Positions 4,963-58,139 of a DNA stretch of 64,000 nt are shown piece after piece. This DNA is from Escherichia coli (GTDB lineage Bacteria; Pseudomonadota; Gammaproteobacteria; Enterobacterales; Enterobacteriaceae): assembly GCF_024502345.1 (NCBI RefSeq), contig NZ_JALDNN010000001.1; one strand, given 5' to 3'. The position numbers and the translations under genes were made by a program. Below the pieces are notes generated by a model. That model had not been told where the DNA came from and did no database searches. It worked only from the letters and a program-made list of their open reading frames with translations. The first letter of the stretch is position 1, and every line of letters starts with the position of its first letter.

Positions 4963-5393
4963 AATCACAACATATTATTAGTGATGATTAAATCACATTA
5001 ACATGATAAGTGAGAAAGTTATGATTATCGATAAAGAATACGCACTTGTAAATGCAACAGCAAGACTTAACACTGACCTGAGGGATTATGAATATGAAAT
5101 AAACAACGCCGCCATCATAACATTTGGCAATGACCTCATTGAGGTAATCGTATATCAGTTCAGCTTTGTCATCAGCATCAGGGCAGAGGGTGAAAAAATA
5201 AAGCACGGCCTACTTGTTAACTTCGGTAAAAATATAGCAAGACAGGTTTCATCACTTTGTGCATCCGCAATGCGAGTCTACCCGAATGAAAAACACAAAC
5301 CGAGCCGTCAGCTTTTCCATTGCATAAATTAGTTTGTGCAAAGACTGTACTACCGACACGCAATAAATTAAAATAGGCCAGCTAATATAACAT

Positions 5394-29487: not shown

Positions 29488-29550
29488 GAATAGCCACGGA
29501 TAATCTAGTTTGTCTGCTTCGTGCCAAAAGCGGACATTGCTACATCACAA
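29488..29550. repeat. solo IS3-family inverted-repeat-like 21-mer followed by a palindromic element (copy 1 of an inverted pair)
   Basis: GAATAGCCACGGATAATCTAG nearly matches the IS end TGAATCGCCACGGATAATCTAG at 33425; then TGTCTGCTTCGTGCCAAAAGCGGACAT...TGCTACATCACAA, inverted relative to the copy at 32483..32519. Confidence 0.5.
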
Positions 29551-29637
29551 TGCGTTATGGTCAACATCAGAATGCAGCCCTTGTGTTGTGACGTGTAGTC
29601 TGGCCTAAACGCAGTTGCACTACATTACCTCGTGGGG

Positions 29638-29886
29638 TCAGCGACGGCCCCGTTTCAGTTCACGTACACAGGGATCATACTCATCTGCATAGCCACCAAA
29701 GTCATGGCTGGGCATGAAGTACCACTTTTCACCTTTCCAACCAGCGATCCGGGTGGTCGGTTTGGTTTTATTCAGAACAACAATACAGACGCCGACGGGA
29801 GACACTGGAGGAAGAAGTCGTTGCACCACACACTCACGATTGCCCACATCAATCCAGTCTTTGACGTGAATTTCAGGATGGTTCAT
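29638..29886 (-). CDS. hypothetical protein (82 aa)
   Basis: ORF only; overlaps a plus-strand ORF (29632..30057); strand choice uncertain. Confidence 0.3.
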   Translation of the reverse strand: MNHPEIHVKDWIDVGNRECVVQRLLPPVSPVGVCIVVLNKTKPTTRIAGWKGEKWYFMPSHDFGGYADEYDPCVRELKRGRR

Positions 29887-30166
29887 TGTTTATCTTCATG
29901 TGATGGAATTGCTTACCGTAATGCATCCGATTACCGTGCAAGATCATGTATCCTGTCGCCTTCCTGCTCCCTTGAGGTGGCGCTGCCTTGGTACAGTCAG
30001 CACTCTGAATGTCAGGCCCAGCCGCGAGGCCGGAAGCTCATCAGGTCGCTGCGGTAGGGGAAAACGGTCCGGGTAACAGACCGTAATCGCCTGCTGGTGG
30101 TTATTGGCCCTGACTGGAGCCGCACTGAAAACTGAAGCGCATTAATATACTCGCGCCTCCGACAGG

Positions 30167-32305
30167 TCAGGCAATTTCTTCCAGCGCATCGTCATTTGCC
30201 GGTGGAGGAGGAAGTATAAGCGCGTCGCACTCCCTGATGACATATTCAGGAATGAGATCAAACCGGGCAGGATCCAGCTGACAGATAAATTCATTTTCAA
30301 TGTGGTAGGTCTCATTCATGAATTTACGTATTACTGCGTTCTCGAGTCCGGTCTGAAGCAACCTGAACACCTGCAGTTTCTCGTAGCCATTACGGCAGAG
30401 CAGATAAAGCGCACGTATACGATCCGGGTCGGTGAGCTGAACGAAAGTGGCCTGGTAGTCAAAGCCGGGAATGCGATCGGCGATTGCCTGGCAGCCGAAG
30501 GCAACTTTTTCTGCGGACATTTCAGGATGTCCCACTCCCTGCACAACGGGTTCACGGGTGTCGATGGGCGTTTCACGGTGATGAAAAAGGTTTGACAGCA
30601 CCTGATAGGCATCACCGAGGTCGTCCATAATTTCATAATGTCGGCGAAGATAGATCAACTTGATGATGTCTTCACTATCAGAGTCAGTGACAGACTGGCA
30701 GATCTGAGCAAAAGTGCGGATATCACTTTCACCGATGAGCTGCTCGGTGATGCAGCCTGCGCTGTAGTGCAAGTGTGAGGCCGTAACCAGATTACTGAAC
30801 AGCTTCCTGACGGACTTCAGTGTATCAATAATAGGCTCAACATCGTGAGTCAGCATCAGTACCGTTTCATTTTTCAGGCACTCACCGGTATTGCGGCGAA
30901 ACAGCATCTCCAGGATGGCAAATTTCTTGTTCTTATCAAACGATGAAATCGGGTCGTCAAGAATGATCAGGCCTGGCTTCTTGGCTAAGCATTCATACAT
31001 AAACAGAACAATGGCAAAGGCGTTGCGTTCACCGTAGCTGAGATGCTGGCTGCCGCCGCTGACGTAGCCTTCAAAGTCTTCGTGGCGCAGTTTCAGCCGA
31101 CATTTATCGCCTTCCCCAGTGATATCCACCTGATAACGATAGCCTGCGTAAGCCAGAAAGGTATTGATATCGGTTTTATGCTTGAGGATCAGCTTCTGCA
31201 TGCCCTGACGCTGCTTATTTATTTGACCCTGCAGGCGTCCGGCCTGCGTCGTCAGGTCGTCTAAAGAGGTATTGAGACTGGCTACGGTGCGGGCCGTTTT
31301 ATCCGACTGCAGCTCCGGGAAAAACTTCACGTCTAGGCGACAGGCTTCCAGTGCAGCCTTGACGTTGGTTGAAGCGCTGAACGTAAAGCCGTTAAGAGTC
31401 TTAAGGGTATTCAGCATATTTATCAGGCTGTCTGTCTGCTTCTTCACTGTCACGAGATATTCTTCGTGCTGTTTTTCCAGCCCACTTTTTAGGGTTGTAA
31501 TATCAGCGAGGCGGGCACGGGCAGGCTCTGAAAAATATTCGCCGAGTTTATCTAGCACGCCGATCAGGCCGATCAGGTTTTTAATGACAGCCTTATCATA
31601 CTCCGCGCTGACGCGGCTAATCTGCTCGGCCTTTTCACGGGAGTCGCCAGTACAGAACGGACAGCAGCCGTCGGATAGCGCGGAGAATTTCTCATACCCC
31701 CGGGTCTGCCACTCGATCCACTCTACGCTGCTTTTACTTTGGATGTACGGCTTATAAGATTCCAAACCGTCGGGAATGTGCTGAAGCTTGTTGCCAGCGG
31801 ATAAGCCTTTCATACCGGTAGACGTTTTTGCAATCCCGGTACTACTCAGCTTAAATGCGGCGCTGAGTTCCCCCAGGTGCGTGATGAATTCTTCAAGCCC
31901 GACGTTATCAGCAAACTGCTGCCGTATGGCCACGACCATGGCTTCGATTTCGCGTTCTGTCTCGTGATACGCTTCACTTTTGATGAAGATGTCAAAACTA
32001 TTACTTACTAACTCGTCTGGTTGAAAAGTGAATTGATCGACATATTTTTCATTAAAGCACATGACGTTTTGCAGGCCATCGACACCAGTTACCCTAGGCT
32101 GTACTGCATCGGGATTAGAACCACGGTATCTAAACGGAAGCAGGTCGCTGAGACCCTGTTCATCCCCGTTTACCGTACACTGAATCGCGCGGGAAATGGT
32201 GCTTTTTCCGGTGCCGTTAGGCGCAAATTTAATATTTAGTTTTTTTTCTGCCAGAGTTATATTTGCTTTATCGATGTTATTACAGCAATTAATTTCAATT
32301 TCCAT
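30167..32305 (-). CDS. ABC-type ATPase with coiled-coil insert and CxxC zinc-hook motif (RloC/Rad50-like); candidate abortive-infection or anticodon-nuclease-type defence protein
   Basis: 712 aa; Walker A FAPNGTGKST near the N-terminus; long helical insert containing DGCCPFCTGD; Walker B LIILDDP; H-loop LTHD; C-terminal domain of about 220 aa with ...YLRRHYEIMDD...FHHRE.... Confidence 0.6.
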   Translation of the reverse strand: MEIEINCCNNIDKANITLAEKKLNIKFAPNGTGKSTISRAIQCTVNGDEQGLSDLLPFRYRGSNPDAVQPRVTGVDGLQNVMCFNEKYVDQFTFQPDELVSNSFDIFIKSEAYHETEREIEAMVVAIRQQFADNVGLEEFITHLGELSAAFKLSSTGIAKTSTGMKGLSAGNKLQHIPDGLESYKPYIQSKSSVEWIEWQTRGYEKFSALSDGCCPFCTGDSREKAEQISRVSAEYDKAVIKNLIGLIGVLDKLGEYFSEPARARLADITTLKSGLEKQHEEYLVTVKKQTDSLINMLNTLKTLNGFTFSASTNVKAALEACRLDVKFFPELQSDKTARTVASLNTSLDDLTTQAGRLQGQINKQRQGMQKLILKHKTDINTFLAYAGYRYQVDITGEGDKCRLKLRHEDFEGYVSGGSQHLSYGERNAFAIVLFMYECLAKKPGLIILDDPISSFDKNKKFAILEMLFRRNTGECLKNETVLMLTHDVEPIIDTLKSVRKLFSNLVTASHLHYSAGCITEQLIGESDIRTFAQICQSVTDSDSEDIIKLIYLRRHYEIMDDLGDAYQVLSNLFHHRETPIDTREPVVQGVGHPEMSAEKVAFGCQAIADRIPGFDYQATFVQLTDPDRIRALYLLCRNGYEKLQVFRLLQTGLENAVIRKFMNETYHIENEFICQLDPARFDLIPEYVIRECDALILPPPPANDDALEEIA

Positions 32306-32482
32306 ACCTAATCCTTTACGGCAAAGACACTGAGCAGGCCCCGTATATTGCAGGCCCGATTAATTATTTAAGCTGAAGCCAGAACATATAAGCACCGTTT
32401 CATTTTTGAGTAAAGCACTCCGGGATTCGCCCTTGGTACCGCAGCGCCGGAGCAGTTGTTTTATAGAGCGTATGTACGGCGC

Positions 32483-32519
32483 TTGTGATGTATGTCCGCT
32501 TCGTGCCAAGAGCGGACAT
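32483..32519. repeat. palindromic element (copy 2 of the inverted pair)
   Basis: TTGTGATGTA TGTCCGCTTCGTGCCAAGAGCGGACAT; inverted repeat partner of 29511..29550. Confidence 0.5.
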
Positions 32520-32588: not shown

Positions 32589-33424
32589 TTATGCCGTTTT
32601 AAAGCGACGTTTCCGGTGTATCACCATGAGAGCGACAATTACCGCCACCGCAATTGTCGCGGTCCCCCGGAAGACGACTGATGAATCTCCTAGGATGATT
32701 TCCATGAATGATGATAAAAACTGGCCGGAGAATATAGCCATAGAAAGCCAGGCAAGGTTACGTCCCCGGACGCGAGCGTGACTCTGCTCGACTGTCATAT
32801 GATTCACAAGCGGCACCGACAGACCAAACCCACAACTCATTAAAACCCCGCCAGCGATGTAGAACACTACATTATCAGCGAATGAAAATATGAAATGTCC
32901 GGCAGCGTAGCAGCTAAACGCCGTGTACAGATTTCCGTACTCACGTAAACGCGCTATGAGGCGCGGCATCATCGCAGCAGCCCCGACGGCGACCAGTGAG
33001 ATAAACGACAGAAAGTATCCGGTTTCTGCTGCCCCAATAGCCATGCAGCTAAACACCTGCGGAATGATGATAATGCTGGTGAAGAAGCAAATCATGGACA
33101 GCAGGGCTGCAAAAAGCACAGGCGCTAATCGAGTCGCACTCACCGATTCGCTTTCTCCGGCGTTTTCATTCATGTTTTCTGTCCCAGAGGACAATTGTTA
33201 CGGCACAAACGCCAGCTGCATAACCAGAAGAACCTAGGCAAAAAGATGAAGCAAAAACGGCCACTGCCAGCCAAGGGTTGCAAGTAATCCGCCTATAAAC
33301 AGAAAAATGACACCGCCCAGCTCAATCAACATTCCCTGCGAAGGTATCATTTTCAGGCAAGCCTGACCGCTATGAAACGAGGAAATCAATCCGGTTCCTG
33401 CTGACATGACGATGGCGGTATCTG
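32589..33424 (-). pseudogene. MFS-type transporter gene remnant, frameshifted and cut by the IS3-family element
   Basis: ORF 32589..33194 is hydrophobic with about 6 TM helices; more TM-like coding sequence continues upstream in another frame to the IS boundary at 33425. Confidence 0.45.
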
Positions 33425-33442: not shown

Positions 33443-33909
33443 CTAGACACTTCCGAGCCGTTGATAATACTGGTTTTCATATTCTGTCGGTGACATCTGA
33501 TCGCTAGAACCATGCCGACGCCTACTGTTATAAAACATTTCGATGTAATCAAAAATATCGCTGCGGGCTTCTTCCCGCGTTCCGTAGATCTTTTTCTTTA
33601 TCCGCTCGCGTTTCAGTAACTGGAAAAAGCTTTCTGCAACCGCGTTATCGTGGCAGTTACCACGACGGCTCATGCTGCCCTCCAGTCCGTGTGATTTCAG
33701 GAACGACTGCCACTCATGGCTTGTGTACTGACTGCCCTGATCCGAGTGAACCAGCACCTGTTTTTGGGGGTTACGCCGCCATACAGCCATCAGCAGTGCG
33801 TTCAGGACAATGTCCTTTGTCATCCGGGATTGCATTGACCAGCCGATAATTTTACGTGAGAACAGATCAACAACCACGGCAAGATACAGCCAGCCTTCGT
33901 GAGTCCTGA
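33443..33909 (-). pseudogene. IS3-family transposase OrfB, 3' exon-like segment downstream of the intron
   Basis: ...IRTHEGWLYLAVVVDLFSRKIIGWSMQSRM...HSDQGSQYTS...GNCHDNAVAESFF... (DDE domain). Confidence 0.8.
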
Positions 33910-36179
33910 GTAGAGTAAGAGGCAGGGCGTAGTCGGACTATTTCCCTGCCTCTCCTCCCCGAACCGGACGTGCACCTTTCAGCGCATCCGGCTCTCCATT
34001 TAAATGCTGGCGAACGCCATTGCCACTTCTGTAAAGCGCGATGTATACGTGTTTCTGGTCTCCGTCCTCAGATAGGGATTACCTTCGGGTAGCCGCCAGC
34101 GGAACAGCTTCTTGCCTTGCCCCACCAACCGGTACAGTATTTCGCCGCTGAGCTTGCCGTGATTGGTTTTACCAAATAAAACCCACGTTTTGCTCTGACC
34201 CGGTTTCGGTGATTTACACCACCACCTCATCAGGGAAGCGATACCTGTACGGTATTTGCGGGCCAGCCAGTGAGCCAGCTTCCAGAACACGACACGGTCG
34301 ATATAACTGAAGACTTTGGCCTTAAAATCAACGAACTGATAGAACATAGCCCAGCCTTTCAGTTTTCGGTTGAGTTGTTCAGCCATATCGACTTTGCTTT
34401 CACTGTAGTTGCCTGATAACAGTGCTGTCAGCGATGCGGCGAAGTTTCTGGCTTTCTCCTGCGGGATCGTTGAGACCACTCGCATCTCGCCATAACGACT
34501 GCGTTTGCGAATGATCCTGTGCCCCAGAAAGATAAAGCCGTCATTAACATGGGTGATTTTAGTCTTATCCATGTTCAGCCTGAGTTTCAGACTGCCTTCG
34601 AGCACACCCCGACACTCCTCCCTGATGGCTTCCGCCTGTGCTTTGGTGCCTTTGACGATGAGGACAAAATCATCGGCATAGCGGCAGTACGCCACCGCGG
34701 GTTTCCACTGCCAGTTTTCTCTGACCGCCGTACTTCGGCCCCGTTGGATACTGTTATTCCAGTACCACCGATCTTTTCTGGCTTTCCCGCTCAGGTAGCG
34801 CTCATGCAGGTATTGATCGAACTCATTCAGCATGATGTTCGATAATAGCGGCGATATAACACCGCCCTGTGGCACACCTTCACTGGCCGCCCGAAAGAGA
34901 CCGACATCGATATGTCCCGCCTTGATGGTTTTCCACAGCAGAGTCATGAAACGTGCGTCACTGATCCTGCGGCGTACAGCCTTCATCAGCAGTCGATGAT
35001 GTACGGTGTCGAAGTAACTGGACAGGTCGCCTTCAATCACCCAGCGTCCCCGGGTTTCACCACAGTCTGTGAGCTGTAATTTCACCGTGCGGATCGCGTG
35101 GTGGACACTGCGCTCAGGCCGGAAGCCATATGAGAGCGTATGAAAATCACTCTCCCATATCGGCTCCATCGCCATCAGCATGGCCCGCTGAACAATACGA
35201 TCCCGCAACGCGGGGATACCCAGTGGTCGCAGTTTGCCGTTGCTTTTAGGGATGTAAACCCGTCTGGCGGGCAAGGGCTGGTAGTGGCCTGAGAGTAATT
35301 CATCCCTGAGGATTTGCAGCTCAACAGCCAGTCTGGCCTGTAGCATTGTTTTGTTCACGCCATCAACGCCGGGGGTATGGGCCCCCTTTGATGAAAGCGT
35401 GATCCGCGCCGCTTCAGCCAGCCATTCTGGTTGTGTTATCAGACGCAGCAGCCGTTGAATCCGTAGGGACGGATCGGTGGCTGCCCATGTGGCAAGCTTG
35501 CGTTGCATTTCGCTGATTATCAAAGGTCTTCACCTCGTTAGGTCAGTTAATTCACGTCGCAAACACATTCAAACTGCTTCCCTTCGCCATGTAATGGGCT
35601 TTCCCCATCGCGGACTACTACGGAAGCTCCGCCAGCCAGCGCGTCATCGGAGCCATGCCCCCTTAACATCCGTCGCTGACCTTCCCCGGTTTACCTGCCT
35701 GGACTCAGGCATACTGAGGAGGCTGCCCGTCGCACTCTTTATCCTTGCTTGCCGCAAGTTGGCAGAAGTCAGCAACGCAAGCGTGATAGACGCTGCTGCC
35801 CCGGTGTTTCGCATACATGTCAAAACACCTTCGACCGGCAGTGCTTACGTATCACTGCCAGTTCCTCCTGCACGGCCTGTCAGATCACGTAGGCCGTGGT
35901 GACGTTTTCAACCCACAGAGGCGGATTAACGGGTTCATGTTCTTCAGCCTTTCAGTACTTAACCTTGAGGATCATCTCGGCTTAGTGATCTCGCCTCAAT
36001 CCCCGTTGTCAGCGGGTTACATCACCCTGCGGGCATGCCGCAGGTCACTGCCGCTCAGGTTCTCCACCGTCACACCCGGTGGGATTGTTGGGTTTCTCAT
36101 CGTGAGTTACCGGTTCAATATTCCAGACAGACTCGCGGTTCATTTAAGCATCCATGCCCGCCCTGAACTCCGGGCACAC
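33910..36179 (-). mobile_element. bacterial group II intron (about 2.27 kb) inserted in IS3-family orfB
   Basis: 5' end GUGUG immediately after exon codon ...DITY; 3' end ...CUAC (AY); domain V GAGCCGGATGCGCTGAAAGGTGCACGTCCGGTTC about 50 nt from the 3' end; internal RT/maturase ORF; joining the flanks restores in-frame ...DITYIRTHEGWLYLAV.... Confidence 0.85.
34000..35523 (-). CDS. group II intron-encoded reverse transcriptase/maturase
   Basis: 507 aa; RT motifs including ...YCRYADDFVLIV... (YADD box) and a C-terminal maturase region; no HNH endonuclease Cys cluster seen. Confidence 0.9.
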   Translation of the reverse strand: MIISEMQRKLATWAATDPSLRIQRLLRLITQPEWLAEAARITLSSKGAHTPGVDGVNKTMLQARLAVELQILRDELLSGHYQPLPARRVYIPKSNGKLRPLGIPALRDRIVQRAMLMAMEPIWESDFHTLSYGFRPERSVHHAIRTVKLQLTDCGETRGRWVIEGDLSSYFDTVHHRLLMKAVRRRISDARFMTLLWKTIKAGHIDVGLFRAASEGVPQGGVISPLLSNIMLNEFDQYLHERYLSGKARKDRWYWNNSIQRGRSTAVRENWQWKPAVAYCRYADDFVLIVKGTKAQAEAIREECRGVLEGSLKLRLNMDKTKITHVNDGFIFLGHRIIRKRSRYGEMRVVSTIPQEKARNFAASLTALLSGNYSESKVDMAEQLNRKLKGWAMFYQFVDFKAKVFSYIDRVVFWKLAHWLARKYRTGIASLMRWWCKSPKPGQSKTWVLFGKTNHGKLSGEILYRLVGQGKKLFRWRLPEGNPYLRTETRNTYTSRFTEVAMAFASI

Positions 36180-36611: not shown

Positions 36612-37832
36612 TGTAGATTCAATTGGTCAACGCAACAGTTATGTGAAAACATGGGGTTGCGGAGGTTTTTTGAATGAGACGAACATTTACAGCAGAGGAA
36701 AAAGCCTCTGTTTTTGAACTATGGAAGAACGGAACAGGCTTCAGTGAAATAGCGAATATCCTGGGTTCAAAACCCGGAACGATCTTCACTATGTTAAGGG
36801 ATACTGGCGGCATAAAACCCCATGAGCGTAAGCGGGCTGTAGCTCACCTGACACTGTCTGAGCGCGAGGAGATACGAGCTGGTTTGTCAGCCAAAATGAG
36901 CATTCGTGCGATAGCTACTGCGCTGAATCGCAGTCCTTCGACGATCTCACGTGAAGTTCAGCGTAATCGGGGCAGACGCTATTACAAAGCTGTTGATGCT
37001 AATAACCGAGCCAACAGAATGGCGAAAAGGCCAAAACCGTGCTTACTGGATCAAAATTTACCATTGCGAAAGCTTGTTCTGGAAAAGCTGGAGATGAAAT
37101 GGTCTCCAGAGCAAATATCAGGATGGTTAAGGCGAACAAAACCACGTCAAAAAACGCTGCGAATATCACCTGAGACAATTTATAAAACGCTGTACTTTCG
37201 TAGCCGTGAAGCGCTACACCACCTGAATATACAGCATCTGCGACGGTCGCATAGCCTTCGCCATGGCAGGCGTCATACCCGCAAAGGCGAAAGAGGTACG
37301 ATTAACATAGTGAACGGAACACCAATTCACGAACGTTCCCGAAATATCGATAACAGACGCTCTCTGGGGCATTGGGAGGGCGATTTAGTCTCAGGTACAA
37401 AAAACTCTCATATAGCCACACTTGTAGACCGAAAATCACGTTATACGATCATCCTTAGACTCAGGGGCAAAGATTCTGTCTCAGTAAATCAGGCTCTTAC
37501 CGACAAATTCCTGAGTTTACCGTCAGAACTCAGAAAATCACTGACATGGGACAGAGGAATGGAACTGGCCAGACATCTAGAATTTACTGTCAGCACCGGC
37601 GTTAAAGTTTACTTCTGCGATCCTCAGAGTCCTTGGCAGCGGGGAACAAATGAGAACACAAATGGGCTAATTCGGCAGTACTTTCCTAAAAAGACATGTC
37701 TTGCCCAATATACTCAACATGAACTAGATCTGGTTGCTGCTCAGCTAAACAACAGACCGAGAAAGACACTGAAGTTCAAAACACCGAAAGAGATAATTGA
37801 AAGGGGTGTTGCATTGACAGATTGAATCTACA
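36612..37832 (+). mobile_element. IS30, complete (1221 bp)
   Basis: Terminal inverted repeats TGTAGATTCAATTGGTCAACGCAACAG at 36612 and its reverse complement ending at 37832; one 383-aa transposase ORF. Confidence 0.9.
36674..37825 (+). CDS. IS30 transposase
   Basis: 383 aa, MRRTFTAEEKASVFELWKNGTGFSEIANILGSKPGTIF..., recognised as the E. coli IS30 transposase. Confidence 0.95.
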   Translation: MRRTFTAEEKASVFELWKNGTGFSEIANILGSKPGTIFTMLRDTGGIKPHERKRAVAHLTLSEREEIRAGLSAKMSIRAIATALNRSPSTISREVQRNRGRRYYKAVDANNRANRMAKRPKPCLLDQNLPLRKLVLEKLEMKWSPEQISGWLRRTKPRQKTLRISPETIYKTLYFRSREALHHLNIQHLRRSHSLRHGRRHTRKGERGTINIVNGTPIHERSRNIDNRRSLGHWEGDLVSGTKNSHIATLVDRKSRYTIILRLRGKDSVSVNQALTDKFLSLPSELRKSLTWDRGMELARHLEFTVSTGVKVYFCDPQSPWQRGTNENTNGLIRQYFPKKTCLAQYTQHELDLVAAQLNNRPRKTLKFKTPKEIIERGVALTD

Positions 37833-47187: not shown

Positions 47188-47916
47188 ATGCAACGACCCG
47201 ATGAAGAGGCCCGCTACGACCGGCTGGCCGTCAGATTGTCGGTCATTATCAGCCGGTTAATGGCCGGAGAAACGCTGACCCTTCAGACACTGTCCGGTGA
47301 GTTTGGTGTATCGATACGCACCCTGCGTCGTGACTTACATCAACGGCTGGTCCACCTCGACATTATCGGGGAGAACGGCACGTATCGGCTCAGTGAGAGC
47401 GCCACGCGTGATCACTCTCCGGGGGCCGTTTCCTTTGCCCGCAGTACCGGTATCGCACGCATTATCCCGTCGCAGAACCGGCAACTGATGCACCTGCTGA
47501 TGAATGAAACGGGCACCTCACCCTGCTTTATCTGGCACGACTTACCGCCAGCATGGACACAGGCTGACAGTTTTCATCGTCTGGCCGAAGCCATTTGTCA
47601 TCACCGGGTGGTCAGTCTGCTGGTCGGCGGTGTCCGTCACGATGAGCAGGAGCCTTACCGCCTGATTTACCGGCATCAGCACTGGTATCTGGTCGTCTGT
47701 TGCCGGGGGAGCCTTCGGGTGTTCCGGCTGGAAGACATTATCTCGGCCTCACTCTCAGAGCAAACCTTCCGTCGCCGGAGCGAAATCAGTTCGCTCATTA
47801 CTGAAGAGGGATTTATCAGCGCACTGCCCCACTTTCGCTTTATCAGTGATGTCATTCACACCTTCAGGGAACAACACCCTGAACATCCATCCAGACCCAA
47901 AGGAGTCAAATCGTGA
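47188..47916 (+). CDS. HTH transcriptional regulator, YfjR-like (second copy)
   Basis: RLAVRLSVIISRLMAGETLTLQTLSGEFGVSIRTLRRDLH; paralog of ORF 4249..4962; stop overlaps the next start. Confidence 0.6.
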   Translation: MQRPDEEARYDRLAVRLSVIISRLMAGETLTLQTLSGEFGVSIRTLRRDLHQRLVHLDIIGENGTYRLSESATRDHSPGAVSFARSTGIARIIPSQNRQLMHLLMNETGTSPCFIWHDLPPAWTQADSFHRLAEAICHHRVVSLLVGGVRHDEQEPYRLIYRHQHWYLVVCCRGSLRVFRLEDIISASLSEQTFRRRSEISSLITEEGFISALPHFRFISDVIHTFREQHPEHPSRPKGVKS

Positions 47917-50675: not shown

Positions 50676-53414
50676 TTACTCAGCTTTAGCAAACTGCTGG
50701 GTGAAGTAAGCCAATGAATTAGCTTCTTTTACGGCATCATGCGGAATGAGTAAGTATTTCCAAGGTTTGCCACCGTGCTGTGCAAGGTATTCACTGGCAT
50801 GACTACACCATTTCACACCACTGCGGGCTTTTTCGGTGACTTCCTCATTCCAACTGCCGTCTTGGTTTTGATGTTGAGTACTTTTAGTTTCAATCATCAA
50901 TACATAGTCGGCGGTTTCAGCAACGAAATCCGGCACGTATTCAGGATGCTCGCTACCGCGTTTGTAGTACATCTTGAATTGGCCTTTGGCAGGCTTAAAC
51001 CACTTCTCGCAGTCGCGTTCTAAAATCACCGCAAAACGGCGCTCAGTGTCTGAATCAAACTTTTGCAATGGGTATAGACAACGGCTAAAGCCGCCAAAGA
51101 GCATTTGTTTGATGCGACTGACATCGCGTACTGTATCACGGTAGCTTTGCACCGGCTGGTCTTGCGCTATGGTGTAAGCGCAGTCACGTAAGGTACTAAA
51201 GCCACTGCGTACATCGACGACGTACTCGGTTGCTTCTTCAAAGAAGTGGTTGTTCAGTTGCGCATGAATTAACTTCGCAATCGCATCACTCTGGTTTTGC
51301 AGAATGTTCTCAACCACATCGTCGTCGTTTTCAGCGGCCAGTGTATTGACAGCTTGAGTGGCTAGGTCAAACAAAAGTTCAGCTTGCTCGTCGTAAGGAA
51401 TATCGTCGTAATCGAACAGCTTCTTCAAAATATAGTTTTGTTTCACCGGCTCGTAGTTGCCCGAATCGCCTTCGCCACGAATGGTTTGGTGATTGTCTTG
51501 CAGGCTTTGTTGAATCAGAGTTCGGTCGATAGGTTTTAAACCTTTAATGGCAGCAATGTCCAAATCGAACGGGTGATAGCCGGTACGTACTTCACCTGAT
51601 GGTGAAACAATAATACGCGGAATATCTATGGTGTTATCCACCGTGAGCTGGGTGACTTGCTCAACAATCGCCGCAATATCCACCGATTCTTCAGTAAATA
51701 GCTCCCGTTGCTCTTGGGTTAACTGAGCTTTTACTTGTTCGGTGATCTGTGCTTTTACCTCAGTCGTTAACAATGCTTTGCTGGTCGGCGCATCGGTAGG
51801 GCGTGTTTGATATTGCTTGATCACGTCCAATGCAGCGCGGGCAACGGTTTGTTGGTTAGGCGTGGTATAAGTGGCTTTAGGTTCTTGTACCTCACGGTTA
51901 CCGTCTGCACCGGTTGCGGTTACACCTGAACCAGTCAGTTGCTGCTCTAGGTTCGATTTAACCTGCACACTTTGTTTGGTTACATCGTCTTCTGGGCGAT
52001 CTAATACGCGTGTTTTCAGGCGCAGTGGGTTATTCGGGTCGTTAGCCTCATCAACAATTTCTTGGAATTTGTCGTGCGCAACAATGCTCAGCGTATCGAC
52101 GGCTTCAACACCTGTACGTTTGCCATAAGGTAAACGCAAACCACGGCCAATTGACTGTTCAATTAGGGTTCTGGCGTTGGCTGCACGTAGTGGCACAATG
52201 GTGTACAGGTTAGTAACGTCCCAACCTTCTTTCAGCATGTTAACGTGAATGACGATCTCGGTTGGCTCATCGACATGCTCAACATTGAGCAGTGCTTGAA
52301 TAGTTTCTTCTTCTTTTTTACTGCTATCCACTTGAATGACTTTGCCACGGTAGCGGCCGTCAAACACTGTTTCAAGTTTGGTTAAAAGCTCTGCTGCATG
52401 CGTGGTATCACGGGCAATCACCAACATAAAAGGCTTAACTAACTTAGCATCGTTTTCATGTGCATAAGTGATTAAATCCACCTTGGTTTGCTCATGTAAA
52501 CGAATACCGTCCATTAACTTAATGGTTTCTAGTTCGTCTTTATCATATTGGCTGGCATCAAAGTTACGCTGAGTAACAACGGCAGGCTCTTTAACAAAAC
52601 CATCATCCATGGCACAGGCCAATGGGTAATCAATCACCACATTTTTAAAGTGCACAGGGCCACGACTTGATTCGGTAAATGGTGTGGCCGTTAGCTCTAA
52701 TGCGAATAGTGGATTAAGCTCATTGAGCGCACGCATACCGGCATCGGCACGATAGCGATGCGATTCGTCCATCAGCAGCACTAAGTCAGGTAAGTTCGAT
52801 AGATACTCAAAGTAGCTTTCGCCTAGGGTTTCCGCTAAACGCTTAATACGCGGGGCTTTGCCTCCACGTACTTCGGTGTTAATTTTCGCGATGTTAAACA
52901 CATTGATCCGAACCGAACCAAATAGATCGCCCATGACTTGTGCGCCGCGGCTCTCATAGTTATCACCGGTGATCACTTCTGGCGGTGCTAGCACAAAATC
53001 GGTAATGCCTTTAAACACGTACTTCGGTGAGGCGGGCGAGAAATCGCTGATCAGCTTTTCATAAATAGTCAGGTTAGGTGCCAACACAAAATAATTGCGA
53101 ATGCCATGTACCTGATACAAATAGGTAATAAACGCCCCCATCAAACGGGTTTTACCTACACCTGTTGCCAAGGCAAAACACAGTGAAGGAAAGTCACGTT
53201 CAAAATCGCTGAGCTTAGGAAACTGCGCTTTTAAGGTTTCTAATAGCTCCGGCACATCGCGTTTTGGGTTCAGTAGTTTGTGCTCAGAAGCACTAATCGC
53301 CACTGCCAACGCACGCAGCGAATCTTGCTGCGGCTGGCGTAAGCTTAAACGGCCAATAATATTATTAATGGCACGTAATTGGTCGGGTTTTAAGCTTGAT
53401 AAATCCATGGTCAT
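50676..53414 (-). CDS. type III-like restriction enzyme Res subunit (SF2 helicase plus C-terminal PD-(D/E)xK nuclease)
   Basis: 912 aa; Walker A LATGVGKTRLM; DEAH-like motif LVLLMDESHR; C-terminal ...YVPDFVAETADYVLMIETK... reads as a PD-(D/E)xK core. Confidence 0.75.
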   Translation of the reverse strand: MTMDLSSLKPDQLRAINNIIGRLSLRQPQQDSLRALAVAISASEHKLLNPKRDVPELLETLKAQFPKLSDFERDFPSLCFALATGVGKTRLMGAFITYLYQVHGIRNYFVLAPNLTIYEKLISDFSPASPKYVFKGITDFVLAPPEVITGDNYESRGAQVMGDLFGSVRINVFNIAKINTEVRGGKAPRIKRLAETLGESYFEYLSNLPDLVLLMDESHRYRADAGMRALNELNPLFALELTATPFTESSRGPVHFKNVVIDYPLACAMDDGFVKEPAVVTQRNFDASQYDKDELETIKLMDGIRLHEQTKVDLITYAHENDAKLVKPFMLVIARDTTHAAELLTKLETVFDGRYRGKVIQVDSSKKEEETIQALLNVEHVDEPTEIVIHVNMLKEGWDVTNLYTIVPLRAANARTLIEQSIGRGLRLPYGKRTGVEAVDTLSIVAHDKFQEIVDEANDPNNPLRLKTRVLDRPEDDVTKQSVQVKSNLEQQLTGSGVTATGADGNREVQEPKATYTTPNQQTVARAALDVIKQYQTRPTDAPTSKALLTTEVKAQITEQVKAQLTQEQRELFTEESVDIAAIVEQVTQLTVDNTIDIPRIIVSPSGEVRTGYHPFDLDIAAIKGLKPIDRTLIQQSLQDNHQTIRGEGDSGNYEPVKQNYILKKLFDYDDIPYDEQAELLFDLATQAVNTLAAENDDDVVENILQNQSDAIAKLIHAQLNNHFFEEATEYVVDVRSGFSTLRDCAYTIAQDQPVQSYRDTVRDVSRIKQMLFGGFSRCLYPLQKFDSDTERRFAVILERDCEKWFKPAKGQFKMYYKRGSEHPEYVPDFVAETADYVLMIETKSTQHQNQDGSWNEEVTEKARSGVKWCSHASEYLAQHGGKPWKYLLIPHDAVKEANSLAYFTQQFAKAE

Positions 53415-53435
53415 TATAATTATCCTTATTAACCG

Positions 53436-55142
53436 TTAATCTTGCGCTGCATCGTCATCGGCAGACGCATCGTCAGTTAGGTTTGCCACGTTTAACGAAT
53501 AATCGTCCTGACCAAATTGGCACTTGTCTAAAATGGCTTTTGGCAGTTTTTTCAAGGTTAAATTGGTAAAACGACCTGGCTCGCAGCGAAATGCACCACA
53601 CATAACCAGTAAAGTTCGGTCACTGCCAACTTCTTCTGACAGCGCTTCTAATTTATCTACCGATAAGCTTTGTGTGGTGACATAAATATGATCCGTCTCG
53701 GTTGAATAACCGTGATCCCACCAATTCACTTCCGATGGCGCATAGGTAAAACCTTCCAGCTTACAAACGGCTTCGGCGAGCATTTCTGGGTTGTACTCTT
53801 TATTGATCACTTCCAAGCCAAACTTATCTTTCACAATTAAGGTCGGGGCAAGTTTGTAATAGCGGAAGCCACCGCCACCTTGCCAGTTTACAGACTTAGA
53901 AATACCACCTTGATCTTCGCCATCAATCACTTTTTGCAAGCGCGGGATAATATGGGTATGACAATGATCACCTAGCTCGACCGAGATCCAACGTCTTTTC
54001 ATCTTGTGAGCTACAGCAGCAGTAGTTCCCGAACCACCGAATGAATCAAAGACTAAATCGCCTTCTCGCGTACACATTTCGAAAATCCGCTTCAAAAGCG
54101 CTTCGGGTTTTTTTCCATTTTTGAAACTAACGCCGCCTTCATTTGCTATTCCATTCCAACTAATGTCAGTCCAAACATCAGTTATTAGTTCAGCAGGTTG
54201 CATCTCACCGTCAATTTCCAAAAGCCTATTGGAGTAAAAGACCATTTGCCTACCATTTGCGATATAAAAGCCTTCGACATCCTCATTTGGATGTACATAA
54301 ACCTTATCCCTATCTTTCTTTGACTTCTCGATAGTTTCTTTTCTCTTTATTTTAGCACCACCACCAATTGCAACGGATTGAAATACACGTTCTGCATTAT
54401 CAATTGCGAATTGTGCTAATTCATCATCAAATGTATCAGGCAGTTTTTTCTTGGCTTCTTTTGTATCTTTATAGCCATTGGCCTTTGCAAACGCATCGGC
54501 AATACCGCACCACGTCCAACTTTTATAATGGTCATCTGGGTTTAATAGATATTTGTTATATCCCGTATCATATCCTTTAGGTATATAGATTTTGTTAAGC
54601 GGTTTCTGGGTGCGATCTTTTGCGTATACAAGCAAAAAGTTTACTGTGGAGAAAACTGTGGCCCCTGTTGCCTTAAAGCCTGAAGGGTCATTTGTGGTCA
54701 TCGATATGGTATTTAACTGATTTGCACGACCAAAAATCTCGTCCATCAAAACTTTTAAATAAGCCATTTCGCAGTCATCTAAGTGAACGAATATTACTCC
54801 ATCATCACTTAGTAGATTACGAATTATTTCTAACCTATCCCTCATTAAGCCCAGCCAAATGGAATGCTCCAGACCATCATCATAGTGCTCAAAAGCACTT
54901 CCGGTATTGAATGGTGGGTCTATGTAAACACACTTCACTTTGCCTGCATATTCTTGCTCTAGCGCCTTCAATGCCAATAAGTTATCGCCAAAAATCAGTT
55001 TATTATCAAAAATATCGTTTTCGGTCACTTTTTGGCTGGCGTGATAAGACTTGCTCGGGTCTTCTAACAAAATGCGCGGCTCTAACTTTTTGCGCTCGTT
55101 TTTGCCTATCCAGGTCAGTTCTAATTTGGTTTTGCTCATCAT
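53436..55142 (-). CDS. type III-like Mod DNA methyltransferase (beta-class N6-adenine/N4-cytosine)
   Basis: 568 aa; motif IV DPPFNTG near the N-terminus and motif I FDSFGGSGTT about 290 aa later (order IV-TRD-I). Confidence 0.8.
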   Translation of the reverse strand: MMSKTKLELTWIGKNERKKLEPRILLEDPSKSYHASQKVTENDIFDNKLIFGDNLLALKALEQEYAGKVKCVYIDPPFNTGSAFEHYDDGLEHSIWLGLMRDRLEIIRNLLSDDGVIFVHLDDCEMAYLKVLMDEIFGRANQLNTISMTTNDPSGFKATGATVFSTVNFLLVYAKDRTQKPLNKIYIPKGYDTGYNKYLLNPDDHYKSWTWCGIADAFAKANGYKDTKEAKKKLPDTFDDELAQFAIDNAERVFQSVAIGGGAKIKRKETIEKSKKDRDKVYVHPNEDVEGFYIANGRQMVFYSNRLLEIDGEMQPAELITDVWTDISWNGIANEGGVSFKNGKKPEALLKRIFEMCTREGDLVFDSFGGSGTTAAVAHKMKRRWISVELGDHCHTHIIPRLQKVIDGEDQGGISKSVNWQGGGGFRYYKLAPTLIVKDKFGLEVINKEYNPEMLAEAVCKLEGFTYAPSEVNWWDHGYSTETDHIYVTTQSLSVDKLEALSEEVGSDRTLLVMCGAFRCEPGRFTNLTLKKLPKAILDKCQFGQDDYSLNVANLTDDASADDDAAQD

Positions 55143-55196
55143 TTCTGTGCTCTTATCTTGTGTTCGTTACTTAGCGTTATTATTCTACAGCAATCG

Positions 55197-57062
55197 CTAC
55201 GCAGGTTGTGCTTGGCGATTACTCGCTTGGGTGTTTTGCCCTTGTCGGCGTTGCGCTTGCTCGGCTAAGTAACTGAATAAATTCTGGTTGTGTGGGTCGT
55301 TCGCTTGAAGGCGTTCTTGTTTTGCTACAACTGCCGGGCTTTCTGCCAAGTTTAAATGGCTAATCCACACCGTTTGCATTAAACGTGCGGTATCGCCCAA
55401 GCGTTTGAAGTATGCGTGCGGCGCACTGCCTAATACTAATGCCGTAAAACTATCAAAAAATTGCTGACGAAGTTCATCAAAAGCGTGGCTGATTAATCTT
55501 TTAAATGCCGCTTGCTCGGTAATCTCAGGAGCCGTAATAGCGCCTTCAAACTGCGCCATTAATAGCGTGGTTATGCAGTAAGTAAAATGTCGATATACCA
55601 GTTTTTCTGGGCTTGGACTACTGCGCTCTGCGTTTGTACATAAGACTTGAATAGCCAGATAGCAGTTCACCGCGTTAATGGCGACGGCCCCCTGTAAATC
55701 TGTACTAAAAACGGCTTGGTACTCGGCACTTTCTTGGTTAGTGAATTTGCTTGGCTCTACTTTTAGCTGATAAGGCACGCGTACATCACCGTGCATACAG
55801 GCCAATGCTTTGGCCAAGGTGTCGATAGTAATGCTGCGAATACCCGCTGCTGCGCTTTGTTGTGGGCGGTAGAGATATTCAACACCAAACATTTTCATCT
55901 CTTGGCGCAAGCGTTCTTGGGTATCATCCAGCGCGGCAAAGTTGGCTAAATCGACCGGGTTTTGCAGGTTACGCGCTTTGGTTACTTGTTTGTGAAATGC
56001 ATCGTTACCCGTGTTGATAATGGTTACCATCACTTGAGCTTGGCTGATGTCTGCATTTGGGTTTTCACGCATAAACTGTGCAGCACTAGCAATGGTTTGT
56101 GCACCGTTAACGACGGACAGGCCATCGACTGCAACATGCTTGCTACCTGTGTGGCCTCTAATATTCCCTTTTGGTTTTACTGCATTGCCAACCAGAGTAA
56201 TGCCATTGTTAAGATAAATAAAATTTTCCGGCTCATGTAAAAGGGTGTCTTTAATCGCCCTATTTACCCCACGTCTGCCAGCACCAATAAAATAGCGAAT
56301 ATTTTTCTCGTAAAGTTTACGGTCATGAGTAGTGTGCAAGGCAATTAAATCGGTTAGCTTGGCGATACCAAATACGACTTTTCGTGGTTGTTCTTGCACT
56401 CGGAACTTATATACAGCGACACGCTCGTTTACCGTATCAACCGCATGTTCACTGCGAAGAGCCTGCTCAACATCGGTGGCGGTGTATTCTTGATATTCAG
56501 GTGCGATTTGCTCTTCACCTTCATCAATCAGCTCTTGGATCGCTGGTTGTAGGTAGTTTTGTGCTTGTATGGTAATGCCATTACCTGTGTATGCGACAAG
56601 CAGTTGAATTCTTTCGCACTCGTCTAATGCGGCTTCAATATTTGCTTGAAGGTTTTGAACATTTTGATTAAAGCGGTGAAATTGCTTGTTTAAAAGTAAC
56701 TTTACACCCTCAATAAAAGCCTGTGCTTCGCCCAATTGGAATTGCGCATCTTCCTTCATTTTTGACTGTACTAAGTACAGAGTCTGATCAGCTTCGTGAT
56801 AATAAATTGCATCAATACCATGGTCTTCATAGTCGTCCACCACAGCTTTTGCTGCGGTCACTACGTCTAAATCGAATTTTTGCTGTAGTACGAATGCGCT
56901 AAAAGCCCTGGAAATTTGCTTTTTAGGTTTATCTTCTCGCCCACCTTGCCCAAGCAATGGCGGTAAATGCGGCACAAAACGCTGCTGTAGCAGTTCTTTT
57001 AATAGGGTAAGAAATTGTGGTTGTAATGCTGCCAAGTGAGTTGTCCTTATTTTTATTGCCAA
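55197..57062 (-). CDS. AIPR-like putative abortive-infection protein (tentative) with N-terminal PD-(D/E)xK-like motif
   Basis: 621 aa; N-terminal ...[22 protein letters not shown]... resembles a nuclease core; family assignment from memory only; start overlaps the upstream Abi_2 gene by about 10 nt. Confidence 0.35.
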
Positions 57063-57994: not shown

Positions 57995-58139
57995 GCAACA
58001 GAAGATCGAATTTTGCGGGCCCCAGAAACGAGTAACCCCTCACAGGGCGCTGATCTGACGGGTAGCGGGAGGGGTGTTGTTGCAGTGATCATAGCCCCAA
58101 ACTGAAAAAAGTCAATGCTGGCGTTGAAATTGATTGTCA

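What the first reader, a model, noticed from the sequence alone, without database searches (positions are those of the whole stretch)
30167..32305. Zinc-hook ABC ATPase (RloC/Rad50-like) as an isolated defence-type gene
The 712-aa protein has Walker A (FAPNGTGKST), a long helical insert with a CxxC hook (CCPFC), Walker B (IILDDP), H-loop (LTHD) and a C-terminal domain with R...E...HH residues spaced like an anticodon-nuclease triad. That architecture is the hallmark of RloC-type tRNA anticodon nucleases, which act as suicidal anti-phage backups for R-M systems. It sits between the metal-resistance module and a nest of insertion sequences.
Basis: partly seen in the sequence, partly recalled or inferred. 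Interest (0 to 1): 0.75.

Follow-up and report, generated by a model that had tools for sequence, protein, structure and literature searches.

The report
RloC-like hook ATPase, different tail
This plasmid gene encodes a real, intact ATPase with a zinc-hook motif that is related to the anti-phage tRNA nuclease RloC, but its C-terminal domain is an uncharacterised family-specific fold, not the RloC/PrrC nuclease domain, so it is a catalogued but untested defence candidate and not a proven tRNA-cutting enzyme.

Summary
The 712-aa ORF is real. It lies on the minus strand (30167-32305), is intact, and is 100% identical to RefSeq 'AAA family ATPase' WP_009654821.1 on large conjugative Klebsiella/Enterobacter plasmids.

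All the ATPase motifs and the CPxC hook are present. They are invariant in 92 homologues down to 28% identity. They align collinearly with a published RloC orthologue (hhalign probability 98.4%).

PADLOC already has a full-length model for this subfamily: PDC-S06, PDLC04889, E = 1e-297. PDC-S06 is an untested candidate single-gene defence system whose other models cover RloC.

The C-terminal 224 residues do not match RloC or PrrC:
- no Pfam or PADLOC PrrC match;
- hhalign probability 1% against an RloC nuclease-domain profile;

The RloC triad spacing (R-x3-E-x36-52-H) is not met.

The family does conserve R554/R555/E558 and K661/N664/H668. These mimic PrrC's essential R320/N321/E324 and R349/N352/H356, but with about 100 residues between the blocks instead of 24. 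That is a lead, not a demonstrated homology.

The surroundings look like defence islands, and no partner gene is conserved.

Verdict: a new variant of the RloC-like design. Its defence role and ribonuclease chemistry are inferred, not shown.

The parts
30167..32305 (-). Complete ORF, 712 aa plus stop. Standalone AAA_13-type ABC ATPase; PADLOC PDC-S06 sub-model PDLC04889.
   Evidence: ORF. (PDLC04889, E = 1.3e-297, residues 1-698). (100% identical to annotated WP_009654821.1 'AAA family ATPase').
32006..32305 (-). ATPase head, N-lobe (aa 1-100), with Walker A FAPNGTGKST (aa 27-36 = 32198-32227).
   Evidence: K34 is 92/92 conserved. Aligned to the RloC P-loop.
31136..32005 (-). Helical insert (aa 101-390) between Walker A and the signature motif. 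It has an outgoing helix pair (aa 111-150), a helical cap, and a 53-residue return helix (aa 335-387).
   Evidence: AF2 model, pLDDT 90.5. Collinear with the RloC insert in hhalign.
31652..31666 (-). Hook motif C-C-P-F-C (aa 214-218). The conserved core is C215-P216-x-C218, in a loop between helices 193-207 and 226-235.
   Evidence: C215 is 92/92, P216 is 91/92, C218 is 91/92; C214 is clade-specific. Aligned with the invariant RloC C260-P-F-C263.
30842..31135 (-). ATPase head, C-lobe (aa 391-488): signature-like LSYGERN (31022-31042), Walker B LIILDDP (30950-30970), D-loop ISSFD (30935-30949), H-loop LTHD (30842-30853).
   Evidence: S423, D450, D451 and H487 are 92/92. hhalign probability 98.5% to RloC over this stretch. 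AAA_13 4.7e-12.
30170..30841 (-). Family-specific C-terminal domain (aa 489-712): a short beta-sheet followed by about 9 helices. No Pfam, PDB or AFDB neighbour outside the family.
   Evidence: 413 clusters at 50% identity, nearly all at the same position in ~700-aa proteins. (pLDDT 91.6). (no foreign match). (hhalign 1.1% vs RloC C-domain).
30632..30649 (-). Conserved block 1, L-R-R-x-x-E (aa 553-558): R554 92/92, R555 84/92, E558 87/92.
   Evidence: Same local pattern as RloC R651-R652-x-x-E655 and PrrC R320-N321-x-x-E324 (PMC3025547). This is a motif-level resemblance only.
30290..30325 (-). Conserved block 2, K-F-x-N-E-T-Y-H-x-E-N-E (aa 661-672): K661 89/92, N664 73/92 (D in 12), E665 88/92, H668 92/92, E670 83/92, N671 90/92.
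   Evidence: The pattern [K/R]-x2-N-x3-H is as in PrrC R349/N352/H356 (PMC3025547). Compare RloC W-I-N-D-G-S-H. DCA couples 551-667 and 547-657.
29638..29886 (-). 82-aa ORF downstream on the same strand. It travels with the ATPase in a ~3-kb module but is not a conserved partner.
   Evidence: Module 29521-32490 is shared at 98.3% with E. coli chromosomal islands. No PADLOC family. Absent or unrelated beside 62-88% homologues.

Best explanation
The gene encodes a standalone member of a large, widely spread family of ~700-aa proteins (Pfam AAA_13 / 'CR006 P-loop'; PADLOC candidate single-gene defence system PDC-S06, sub-model PDLC04889).

SHOWN:
- It has an intact ABC/SMC-type ATPase head split by a ~290-residue helical insert. 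That insert carries an invariant C-P-x-C hook. This whole module is homologous and collinear with that of RloC.
- It ends in a 224-residue domain that is unique to this family and is not detectably related to the RloC/PrrC nuclease domain.
- It moves horizontally as a single gene among plasmids and chromosomal islands that are rich in defence genes.

INFERRED:
- By analogy with RloC and with Lamassu LmuB, two protomers pair through their ATPase heads and share a Zn2+ through the two-cysteine hooks.
- The ATPase responds to a DNA cue of infection, most likely free DNA ends.
- ATP-driven rearrangement then unleashes the C-terminal domain as a toxic effector, giving abortive infection.
- The effector is most likely a metal-independent ribonuclease. 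Its site would be built from R554/R555/E558 and K661/N664/H668, with E665/E670/N671/R648 nearby. These residues mirror the six residues essential in PrrC's nuclease (R320, N321, E324, R349, N352, H356), but the two blocks are separated by an extra ~75-100 residues of helical, HTH-like insert.
- The RNA target need not be a tRNA anticodon.
For: - Family identity: PDLC04889 E = 1.3e-297, full length. AAA_13. More than 3,400 homologues. 413 clusters at 50% identity share the C-domain at the same position.
- Homology of the ATPase and hook to RloC: the Shewanella ANA-3 RloC orthologue, listed as no. 60 in Table S1 of PMC2610378, was located. hhalign gives probability 98.4-98.5%, collinear over residues 2-488 including W..G..CPFC.
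- Intact catalytic motifs, invariant across 92 homologues.
- Confident models: pLDDT 90.5 and 91.6.
- Conserved polar set in the C-domain. Coevolution places the RRxxE helix against the His helix: pairs 547-657, 551-667, 567-669/670, 647-669, with Neff 186.
- PrrC's essential residues and the idea of an R/E/H transesterification site come from PMC3025547 and PMC2610378.
- RloC is switched on by ATP plus linear DNA, and by hook mutations (PMC3458546). The Lamassu LmuB hook and ATPase motifs are required for defence, and Lamassu senses DNA ends (bioRxiv 10.1101/2025.03.14.643221; PMC12663957).
- Context:
  - an E. coli integrase island with a TmtA-like helicase and a nuclease-like gene;
  - a Pantoea plasmid with an Abi gene, a restriction endonuclease and VapBC;
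  - a 62% paralogue next to VapBC, TIR, KAP NTPase and an AAA_15/21 ATPase;
  - Serratia next to a TIR_2 gene;
  - Cronobacter next to EcoRII R-M.
- No conserved neighbour.
Against: - I found no experimental evidence of phage defence, toxicity or nuclease activity for this subfamily. PDC-S06 is described as an unpublished candidate (PMC11811056).
- The proposed RNase site rests on short motifs chosen by eye. Profile-profile comparison does not support it: probability 1.1%, and 0.6-3.4% after cutting the domain into pieces or deleting the insert.
- K replaces R at the HEPN-type position, and there is no R within 4-6 residues of H668.
- The AF2 insert is a broken helical cap with a short stalk, not a long Rad50-like coiled coil.
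- I could not inspect coordinates, so the clustering of the conserved residues is supported only by weak DCA.
- tblastn found no copy in 50,697 phage genomes.
Confidence: 0.5

Rival explanations
1. It is a true RloC orthologue: a wobble-nucleotide-excising tRNA anticodon nuclease that backs up R-M systems.
For: - Same ATPase and hook module as RloC.
- Same PADLOC umbrella.
- R-x3-E is conserved and a conserved His lies downstream.
- The local contexts RRxxE and aromatic-I-N-acidic-x-x-H resemble RloC's RRIIE and WINDGSH.
- The same window carries a type III R-M system that could act in trans.
Against: - The defining triad spacing R-x3-E-x36-52-H (PMC2610378) is not met: 109 residues to the only invariant His, and no Ser before it.
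- The PADLOC PrrC HMM and the six full-length RloC-type PDC-S06 HMMs cover real RloC end to end, but match only the ATPase part of this protein.
- hhalign probability is 1.1% for the C-domains.
- Foldseek on AFDB50 returns only 73 significant hits, and the 50 shown are all the protein's own family.
Confidence: 0.12
2. The C-terminal domain is not an enzyme. It is a sensor, DNA-binding or protein-docking module that contains an HTH-like four-helix unit. The protein then defends, or excludes foreign DNA, through ATP-dependent DNA binding, or by recruiting a host or unlinked nuclease, as Rad50 recruits Mre11 and LmuB recruits LmuA.
For: - Helices 617-625 and 627-636 are separated by one residue, like a helix-turn-helix.
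- No known nuclease fold or motif was detected.
Against: - No conserved neighbouring gene that could be the effector.
- The most conserved residues of the domain are the charged or catalytic-type set R, R, E, K, E, H, E, N. They lie outside the HTH-like segment, which fits an active site better than a docking surface.
- The HTH hits are statistically insignificant.
Confidence: 0.25
3. It is not a defence gene. It is an SMC/RecN/RecF-like DNA maintenance or repair factor carried by plasmids and islands.
For: Weak hits to the SMC_N, AAA_23, RecF and archaeal SMC-related models, limited to ATPase motifs. Rad50-like hook.
Against: - Patchy, horizontally transferred distribution: 84 of 5,426 complete E. 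coli genomes and 18 of 72,556 plasmids at >=95% identity.
- Always in variable accessory regions next to defence or toxin-antitoxin genes.
- No Mre11/SbcD-type partner.
- All NCBIfam hits are far below the curated cut-offs.
Confidence: 0.08

Closest known systems
RloC (wobble-nucleotide-excising anticodon nuclease; Geobacillus kaustophilus, Acinetobacter baylyi; PMC2610378, PMC3458546)
   Same: - Single polypeptide, usually not linked to an R-M locus.
- ABC ATPase with DDP-type Walker B, ISSxD D-loop and LTH(D/N) H-loop.
- A helical insert with an invariant CP(F/Y)C hook, preceded by W-x-x-x-G.
- A C-terminal extra domain of ~165-225 residues that starts with a beta-hairpin and carries an invariant RRxxE helix and an invariant His.
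- hhalign probability 98.4% over the ATPase and hook.
- Same PADLOC umbrella, PDC-S06.
   Different: - The C-domain is not alignable (probability 1.1%).
- The triad spacing is 109 residues instead of 36-52.
- There is no Ser-His.
- The PrrC HMM does not reach the C-domain.
- The insert is ~45 residues shorter before the hook and ~35 shorter after it.
- No activity data exist.
PrrC (E. coli tRNA-Lys anticodon nuclease; PMC3025547)
   Same: An ABC-type NTPase fused in cis to a C-terminal effector. The residues essential in PrrC (R320, N321, E324 / R349, N352, H356) have pattern counterparts here: R554, R555, E558 / K661, N664, H668.
   Different: - PrrC has no hook insert.
- PrrC is embedded in a type Ic hsd locus.
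- In PrrC the two motif blocks are 24 residues apart, not 102.
- The PADLOC PrrC model matches only aa 446-468 at E = 0.0014.
PADLOC PDC-S06 (phage defence candidate, single gene)
   Same: Full-length match to model PDLC04889. Single-gene organisation.
   Different: PDC-S06 is a bundle of 13 HMMs. Those that cover RloC (04890, 04886, 04897, 04894, 04896, 04898) match only the ATPase part of this protein. The system is an unpublished, unvalidated candidate.
Lamassu LmuB / Rad50-SbcC
   Same: An SMC/Rad50-type ATPase with a zinc hook. The LmuB model matches at E = 4.4e-14 over aa 209-488. The DNA-end-sensing paradigm comes from PMC12663957 and bioRxiv 10.1101/2025.03.14.643221.
   Different: There are no LmuA/LmuC or Mre11/SbcD partner genes. 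The effector candidate is fused in cis. The helical arm is much shorter.
HEPN superfamily ABC-HEPN fusions (PMC3710099)
   Different: All structural scores are below significance. Lys replaces the hallmark Arg. No HMM-level match.

Membership tests
RloC | ABC ATPase motifs (Walker A, signature, Walker B/D-loop, His switch) | tested here: met
   Motifs read and mapped. They are invariant in 92 homologues. hhalign to the RloC alignment gives probability 98.5%.
RloC | Coiled-coil/zinc-hook insert with CXXC between Walker A and the signature motif | tested here: met
   C215-P-x-C218 is invariant, sits in a ~290-aa helical insert, and aligns with RloC CPFC. Zn binding itself was not tested. The arm is shorter and more broken than in Rad50.
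RloC | C-terminal triad Arg-X3-Glu-X36-52-His, Ser often before His (PMC2610378) | tested here: not met
   R554-x3-E558 is present. No conserved His lies 36-52 residues later (H593 is at x34 and is H in only 7/92). The invariant H668 is at x109 and is preceded by Tyr/Phe.
RloC | C-domain homologous to the RloC/PrrC anticodon-nuclease domain | tested here: not met
   hhalign A3 vs A5 gives probability 1.1%; segment tests give 0.6-3.4%. AAA_13 stops at model position 572 of 713. The PrrC HMM covers the nuclease region of real RloC but not of this protein. Fold searches find the own family only.
RloC | Excision of the tRNA wobble nucleotide; activation by ATP plus linear DNA | not testable with these tools
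   Needs expression, RNA analysis and in vitro assays.
PrrC | Compact ABC NTPase without a hook insert, embedded in a type Ic hsd (R-M) locus | tested here: not met
   A hook insert is present. The neighbours are metal-resistance genes, a truncated MFS gene and IS elements, with no hsd genes.
PrrC | Match to the PrrC profile including the nuclease domain | tested here: not met
   PADLOC PrrC E = 0.0014, aa 446-468 only.
PADLOC PDC-S06 | Full-length match to a PDC-S06 HMM | tested here: met
   PDLC04889, E = 1.3e-297, residues 1-698 on profile positions 1-688 of 693.
PADLOC PDC-S06 | Single-gene system (no obligatory partner) | tested here: met
   Neighbours differ in every context examined.
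PADLOC PDC-S06 | Anti-phage activity | not testable with these tools
   Only census papers and a remark that it is an unpublished candidate were found.
Pfam AAA_13 (PF13166) | Significant match to the family HMM | tested here: met
   i-Evalue 4.7e-12 (aa 286-490) and 0.0014 (aa 20-98). The match is partial, ATPase only.
HEPN superfamily | Rx4-6H motif in an alpha-helical bundle with detectable fold similarity | tested here: inconclusive
Lamassu (LmuB) / Rad50-Mre11 | Partner genes LmuA+LmuC, or an Mre11/SbcD nuclease, in the operon | tested here: not met
   No such neighbours in the window or in related loci.

The most novel reading that the evidence does not exclude
The C-terminal domain is a previously undescribed effector fold, with no neighbour in PDB or AFDB outside its own family. 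It carries a PrrC-like R/N-E ... K/R-N-H catalytic constellation, split by an inserted HTH-like helical module. This would define a second, independent class of ribotoxins gated by a zinc-hook ATPase. Its RNA (or DNA) target would differ from the tRNA wobble position. It is spread across many phyla and sits on clinically important conjugative resistance plasmids.
Probability: 0.3. Interest if true: 0.65.

Novelty: new variant of a known kind. Interest (0 to 1): 0.45.

Why it matters
If the protein is active, it is a one-gene abortive-infection device. It would use the same logic as RloC and Lamassu: a Rad50-like hooked ATPase that reads DNA ends. But it would have a different, structurally orphan warhead.

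Relatives are very common. A 62%-identical paralogue is indexed in more than 12,000 blocks of the assembly collection and sits on large plasmids. This allele is found on conjugative Klebsiella, Citrobacter, Raoultella and Enterobacter plasmids and in 84 of 5,426 complete E. coli genomes. It could therefore affect phage therapy and plasmid-phage interactions in Enterobacteriaceae.

The work also sets a practical caution. An 'AAA_13 / PDC-S06 / RloC-like' label should not be read as 'tRNA anticodon nuclease' unless the C-domain has been checked.

Tried and rejected
1. The plus-strand reading of 30167-32305 is full of stops. The gene is on the minus strand.
2. NCBIfam gives only ABC-transporter, SMC and RecF ATPase-motif hits far below the cut-offs. 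The JGI and NCBI names 'EcfA2' and 'cobalt transporter ATP-binding subunit' on homologues are mis-transfers.
3. Sequence search of PDB with the protein and with the C-domain profile gave nothing useful.
4. Pfam on the C-domain and on 50 family members gave nothing.
5. hhalign of the C-domain against RloC was negative in every form tried: whole domain, two halves, with residues 577-649 deleted, and core only. The best local pairing (FRLL..KF with FKILG..KF) does not put the histidines in register.
6. An R-x3-E-x36-H reading using H593 was rejected. The gap is 34 residues and H593 is not conserved.
7. The 82-aa downstream ORF as a partner or antitoxin was rejected. It has no family hit and is not conserved beside homologues.
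8. Phage-borne copies: tblastn against 50,697 phage genomes found none, although phrog_2801 matches the protein.
9. Literature searches for PDC-S06, AAA_13, PF13166 and recent RloC work found no functional study of this subfamily.
I also could not read model coordinates.
Full report
**1. The observation**

The window has a 712-codon ORF at 30167..32305. It reads on the minus strand; the plus-strand frame is full of stops.

- Walker A FAPNGTGKST, aa 27-36
- CCPFC, aa 214-218
- signature-like LSYGERN, aa 422-428
- Walker B LIILDDP, aa 446-452
- D-loop ISSFD, aa 453-457
- H-loop LTHD, aa 485-488
- LRRHYE, aa 553-558
- LFHHR, aa 573-577

The DNA is 100% identical to a gene annotated 'AAA family ATPase' (WP_009654821.1). 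That gene sits on large conjugative plasmids of Klebsiella, Citrobacter, Raoultella and Enterobacter, for example an IncHI2A plasmid of K. quasipneumoniae.

The stated location is right. One side carries P-type ATPases, CadR/CueR-type regulators, a ZitB-like CDF transporter and ArsR. The other side carries a truncated MFS gene, an IS3 transposase fragment, a group II intron reverse transcriptase and an IS30 transposase.

**2. The family**

PADLOC gives a full-length match to model PDLC04889 of 'PDC-S06' (E = 1.3e-297). It gives only ATPase-restricted matches to the other PDC-S06 models, and to LmuB, AriA and PrrC.

Pfam finds AAA_13 (PF13166) only over model positions 15-80 and 363-572 of 713, which is the ATPase part. 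NCBIfam gives only sub-threshold ABC, SMC and RecF motif hits.

More than 3,400 homologues were scored. The 120th best is still 57% identical and ~700 aa long. The hosts include Legionella, Vibrio, cyanobacteria and alphaproteobacteria.

I searched 1.84 billion cluster representatives with only the last 224 residues. This found 413 clusters, and almost all carry the domain at residues ~490-700 of a ~700-aa protein. The shorter entries are most likely fragments. The hosts extend to Firmicutes, Bacteroidota, Chloroflexi, Actinobacteria, Campylobacterota and a Paceibacterota MAG.

The C-terminal domain is therefore a signature of this architecture. It is not a shuffled module.

**3. The ATPase and hook are RloC-like**

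I needed a genuine RloC for comparison. Table S1 of the RloC paper (PMC2610378) lists an orthologue on Shewanella sp. ANA-3 plasmid 1 (746 aa, flanked by IS200/IS605). I located it at L005:35258-37495, next to a type I R-M system.

This protein behaves as RloC should:
- It has CPFC, and RRIIE-x38-SH.
- It is covered end to end by six other PDC-S06 models.
- The PADLOC PrrC model covers it, including the start of the nuclease region (E = 1.6e-13).
- JGI names several of its homologues 'wobble nucleotide-excising tRNase'.

I then compared a 92-sequence alignment of the window's family (A2) with a 35-sequence RloC alignment (A4). hhalign gives probability 98.4-98.5%. With greedier settings the alignment is collinear from the P-loop, through W-x3-G-x9-11-CP(F/Y)C, to the signature, Walker B, D-loop and H-loop.

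In A2 the key residues are essentially invariant:
- 92/92: K34, C215, S423, D450, D451, H487
- 91/92: P216, C218

A CxxC by itself is not remarkable; 0.4 are expected by chance in this protein. Its invariance and its registration with the RloC hook make it a real feature.

Only two conserved cysteines are available. A zinc site would therefore have to be shared between two chains, as in Rad50, RloC and LmuB. That is an inference.

AlphaFold2 models the protein confidently (pLDDT 90.5). The insert is a helix pair leaving the head (aa 111-150), a helical cap with the hook in a loop between helices 193-207 and 226-235, and a 53-residue helix returning to the head (aa 335-387). This is a shorter and more broken arm than a Rad50 coiled coil.

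**4. The C-terminal domain is not the RloC/PrrC nuclease domain by any test I could run**

- Pfam finds nothing in the domain or in 50 family members.
- A profile search of PDB sequences finds nothing.
- hhalign against a profile of RloC C-domains (A5) gives probability 1.1%.
- Cutting the domain in pieces, or deleting residues 577-649, gives 0.6-3.4%.
- The domain alone folds confidently (pLDDT 91.6).
- Foldseek on AFDB50 returns 73 significant hits. The 50 shown are all from the protein's own family, named 'Protein CR006 P-loop domain-containing protein'.

The RloC triad is defined as R-x3-E-x36-52-H, often with Ser before His (PMC2610378). In this family:
- R554 (92/92) and E558 (87/92) fit the first half.
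H575 is H in 70 and K in 22 sequences. H576 is H in 5/92. H593, 34 residues after E558, is H in 7/92.
- The only invariant histidine is H668, which lies 109 residues after E558.

A defining feature of RloC was therefore tested and not met. I do not file the protein as an RloC.

**5. What the C-domain may still be**

Its most conserved residues are of the catalytic type: R554, R555, E558, S571, K643, R648, K661, N664, E665, H668, E670, N671.

Alanine scanning of EcoPrrC found R320, N321, E324, R349, N352 and H356 essential, with N352 and R349 also conserved in RloC (PMC3025547). The window's family has the same two patterns:
- R-[R/N]-x2-E: R554-R555-x-x-E558
- [R/K]-x2-N-x3-H: K661-x-x-N664-x-x-x-H668

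RloC has RRxxE and W-I-N-D-G-S-H, against F-I-N-E-T-Y-H here.

A mean-field DCA on 225 non-redundant C-domains (Neff 186) couples positions 547-657, 551-667, 567-669/670 and 647-669. This suggests that the RRxxE helix packs against the helix that ends at H668. The analysis is weak, and I could not inspect coordinates.

I treat the PrrC-like site as a specific, testable lead. It is not a demonstrated homology.

**6. Context and mobility**

A ~3-kb module (window 29521-32490: the ATPase plus an 82-aa ORF) recurs at 98.3% identity in E. coli chromosomes. There it lies in an integrase island beside ychF, together with a 1,589-aa TmtA/MkoA-like helicase and a nuclease-like protein.

Other contexts:
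- An 87% DNA-identical copy (88% over the gene alone in a second Pantoea plasmid) lies on a Pantoea plasmid beside an Abi gene, a restriction endonuclease and VapBC.
- A 72% homologue in Serratia follows a TIR_2 gene.
- A 70% homologue in Cronobacter abuts EcoRII R-M.
- A 62% paralogue, indexed in over 12,000 blocks of the assembly collection, sits on large plasmids among VapBC, a TIR protein, a KAP NTPase and an AAA_15/21 ATPase.

No neighbour is conserved, and the 82-aa ORF has no relatives next to other homologues. This fits a single-gene system.

At >=95% identity the allele occurs in 84 of 5,426 complete E. coli genomes (82 of them chromosomal) and in 18 of 72,556 plasmids.

No copy was found in 50,697 phage genomes, although phrog_2801 matches the protein.

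**7. Mechanism**

Shown:
- an intact ABC ATPase;
- an invariant two-Cys hook;
- homology of this module to RloC;
- a family-specific C-domain with a conserved R/E/K/N/H set;
- single-gene mobility among defence islands.

Inferred from RloC and Lamassu. In RloC, ATP plus linear DNA, or hook mutations, unleash the nuclease (PMC3458546). In Lamassu, the hook and the ATPase motifs are required, and the system senses DNA ends (PMC12663957). By analogy:
- a head-to-head dimer is bridged by Zn at the hooks and held inactive;
- a DNA cue of infection triggers an ATP-dependent rearrangement;
- the rearrangement frees the C-domain;
- the C-domain most likely cleaves RNA by metal-independent transesterification and aborts the infection.

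I put about 0.5 on this package. Family identity and RloC-like gating are much more secure than the RNase chemistry.

Rival explanations:
- a true RloC tRNase, 0.12;
- a non-catalytic sensor or DNA-binding tail, 0.25;
- a repair or maintenance function, 0.08.

**8. Novelty**

The subfamily is already catalogued: PADLOC has a dedicated HMM and Pfam/InterPro cover it as AAA_13/CR006. However, it is described as an unpublished candidate (PMC11811056). A 2025 preprint reports that an E. coli AAA-ATPase called PDC-S06 by PADLOC was not called by DefenseFinder. I did not verify that this is the same subfamily.

I found no functional study.

It is best described as a new variant of the RloC-like design: the same gate with a different, structurally orphan tail. 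Interest is moderate. The result is not a surprise to specialists, but it is a concrete and cheap experiment with a clear set of point mutants.

Noticed in passing
window 50676-61115 (minus strand) and 47188-47916: A compact defence cluster about 18 kb from the gene. It holds type III restriction (Res, 912 aa) and methylase (Mod, 568 aa) genes, an AbiU-like gene (621 aa), AbiD (313 aa) and a DrmD-like SNF2 helicase (991 aa). A WYL-domain protein lies nearby. An R-M system is therefore present in trans on the same replicon.
   Followed up: partly
window 33443-35523 and 36674-37825: A group II intron reverse transcriptase/maturase (34000-35523, minus strand) lies directly beside a C-terminal fragment of an IS3 transposase (33443-33877). 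An IS30 transposase follows. The intron may have landed in or next to the IS.
   Followed up: partly
window 29521-32490; L002 8001-10971: The ATPase and an 82-aa ORF (29638-29886) form a ~3-kb module. It is shared at 98.3% identity between this plasmid and an integrase island next to ychF in many E. coli chromosomes. The module ends were not examined for repeats or recombination sites.
   Followed up: partly
window 32589-33194: The ORF upstream of the ATPase is annotated in reference plasmids as a 585-bp 'MFS transporter', far too short for a full MFS protein. It gives no NCBIfam hit. It is probably a remnant left by the insertion that brought the module in.
   Followed up: no
NZ_CP020848.1 85294-87431; NZ_CP103666.1; NZ_JBSWBG010000002.1 71412-73549: In a few plasmids the match to the gene is 2,138 bp instead of 2,139. 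In K. variicola and K. aerogenes records no CDS is annotated under the match. This suggests frameshifted copies.
   Followed up: no
L006-L011, gene at 5001-7139: A 62%-identical paralogue (P0029) is extremely common. It is indexed in 12,421 blocks of the assembly collection. It sits on large plasmids between an AAA_15/AAA_21 ATPase with two small ORFs and VapBC, with a CAP12/PCTIR TIR protein and a KAP NTPase beyond.
   Followed up: partly
L005 35255-45386 (Shewanella sp. ANA-3 plasmid): The published RloC orthologue lies next to a type I R-M system (M, S, R), an HTH gene and IS200/IS605 tnpA, with a Qat system further on. This is a textbook RloC context and is useful as a positive control.
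   Followed up: yes
homologues P0022, P0029, P0042, P0083 and others: Public annotations of family members include 'cobalt transporter ATP-binding subunit', 'EcfA2', 'ABC-type Mn2+/Zn2+ transport system ATPase' and 'SCCmec type IVc protein'. These names are transferred from ABC motifs or from the S. aureus CR006 ORF and are misleading.
   Followed up: no
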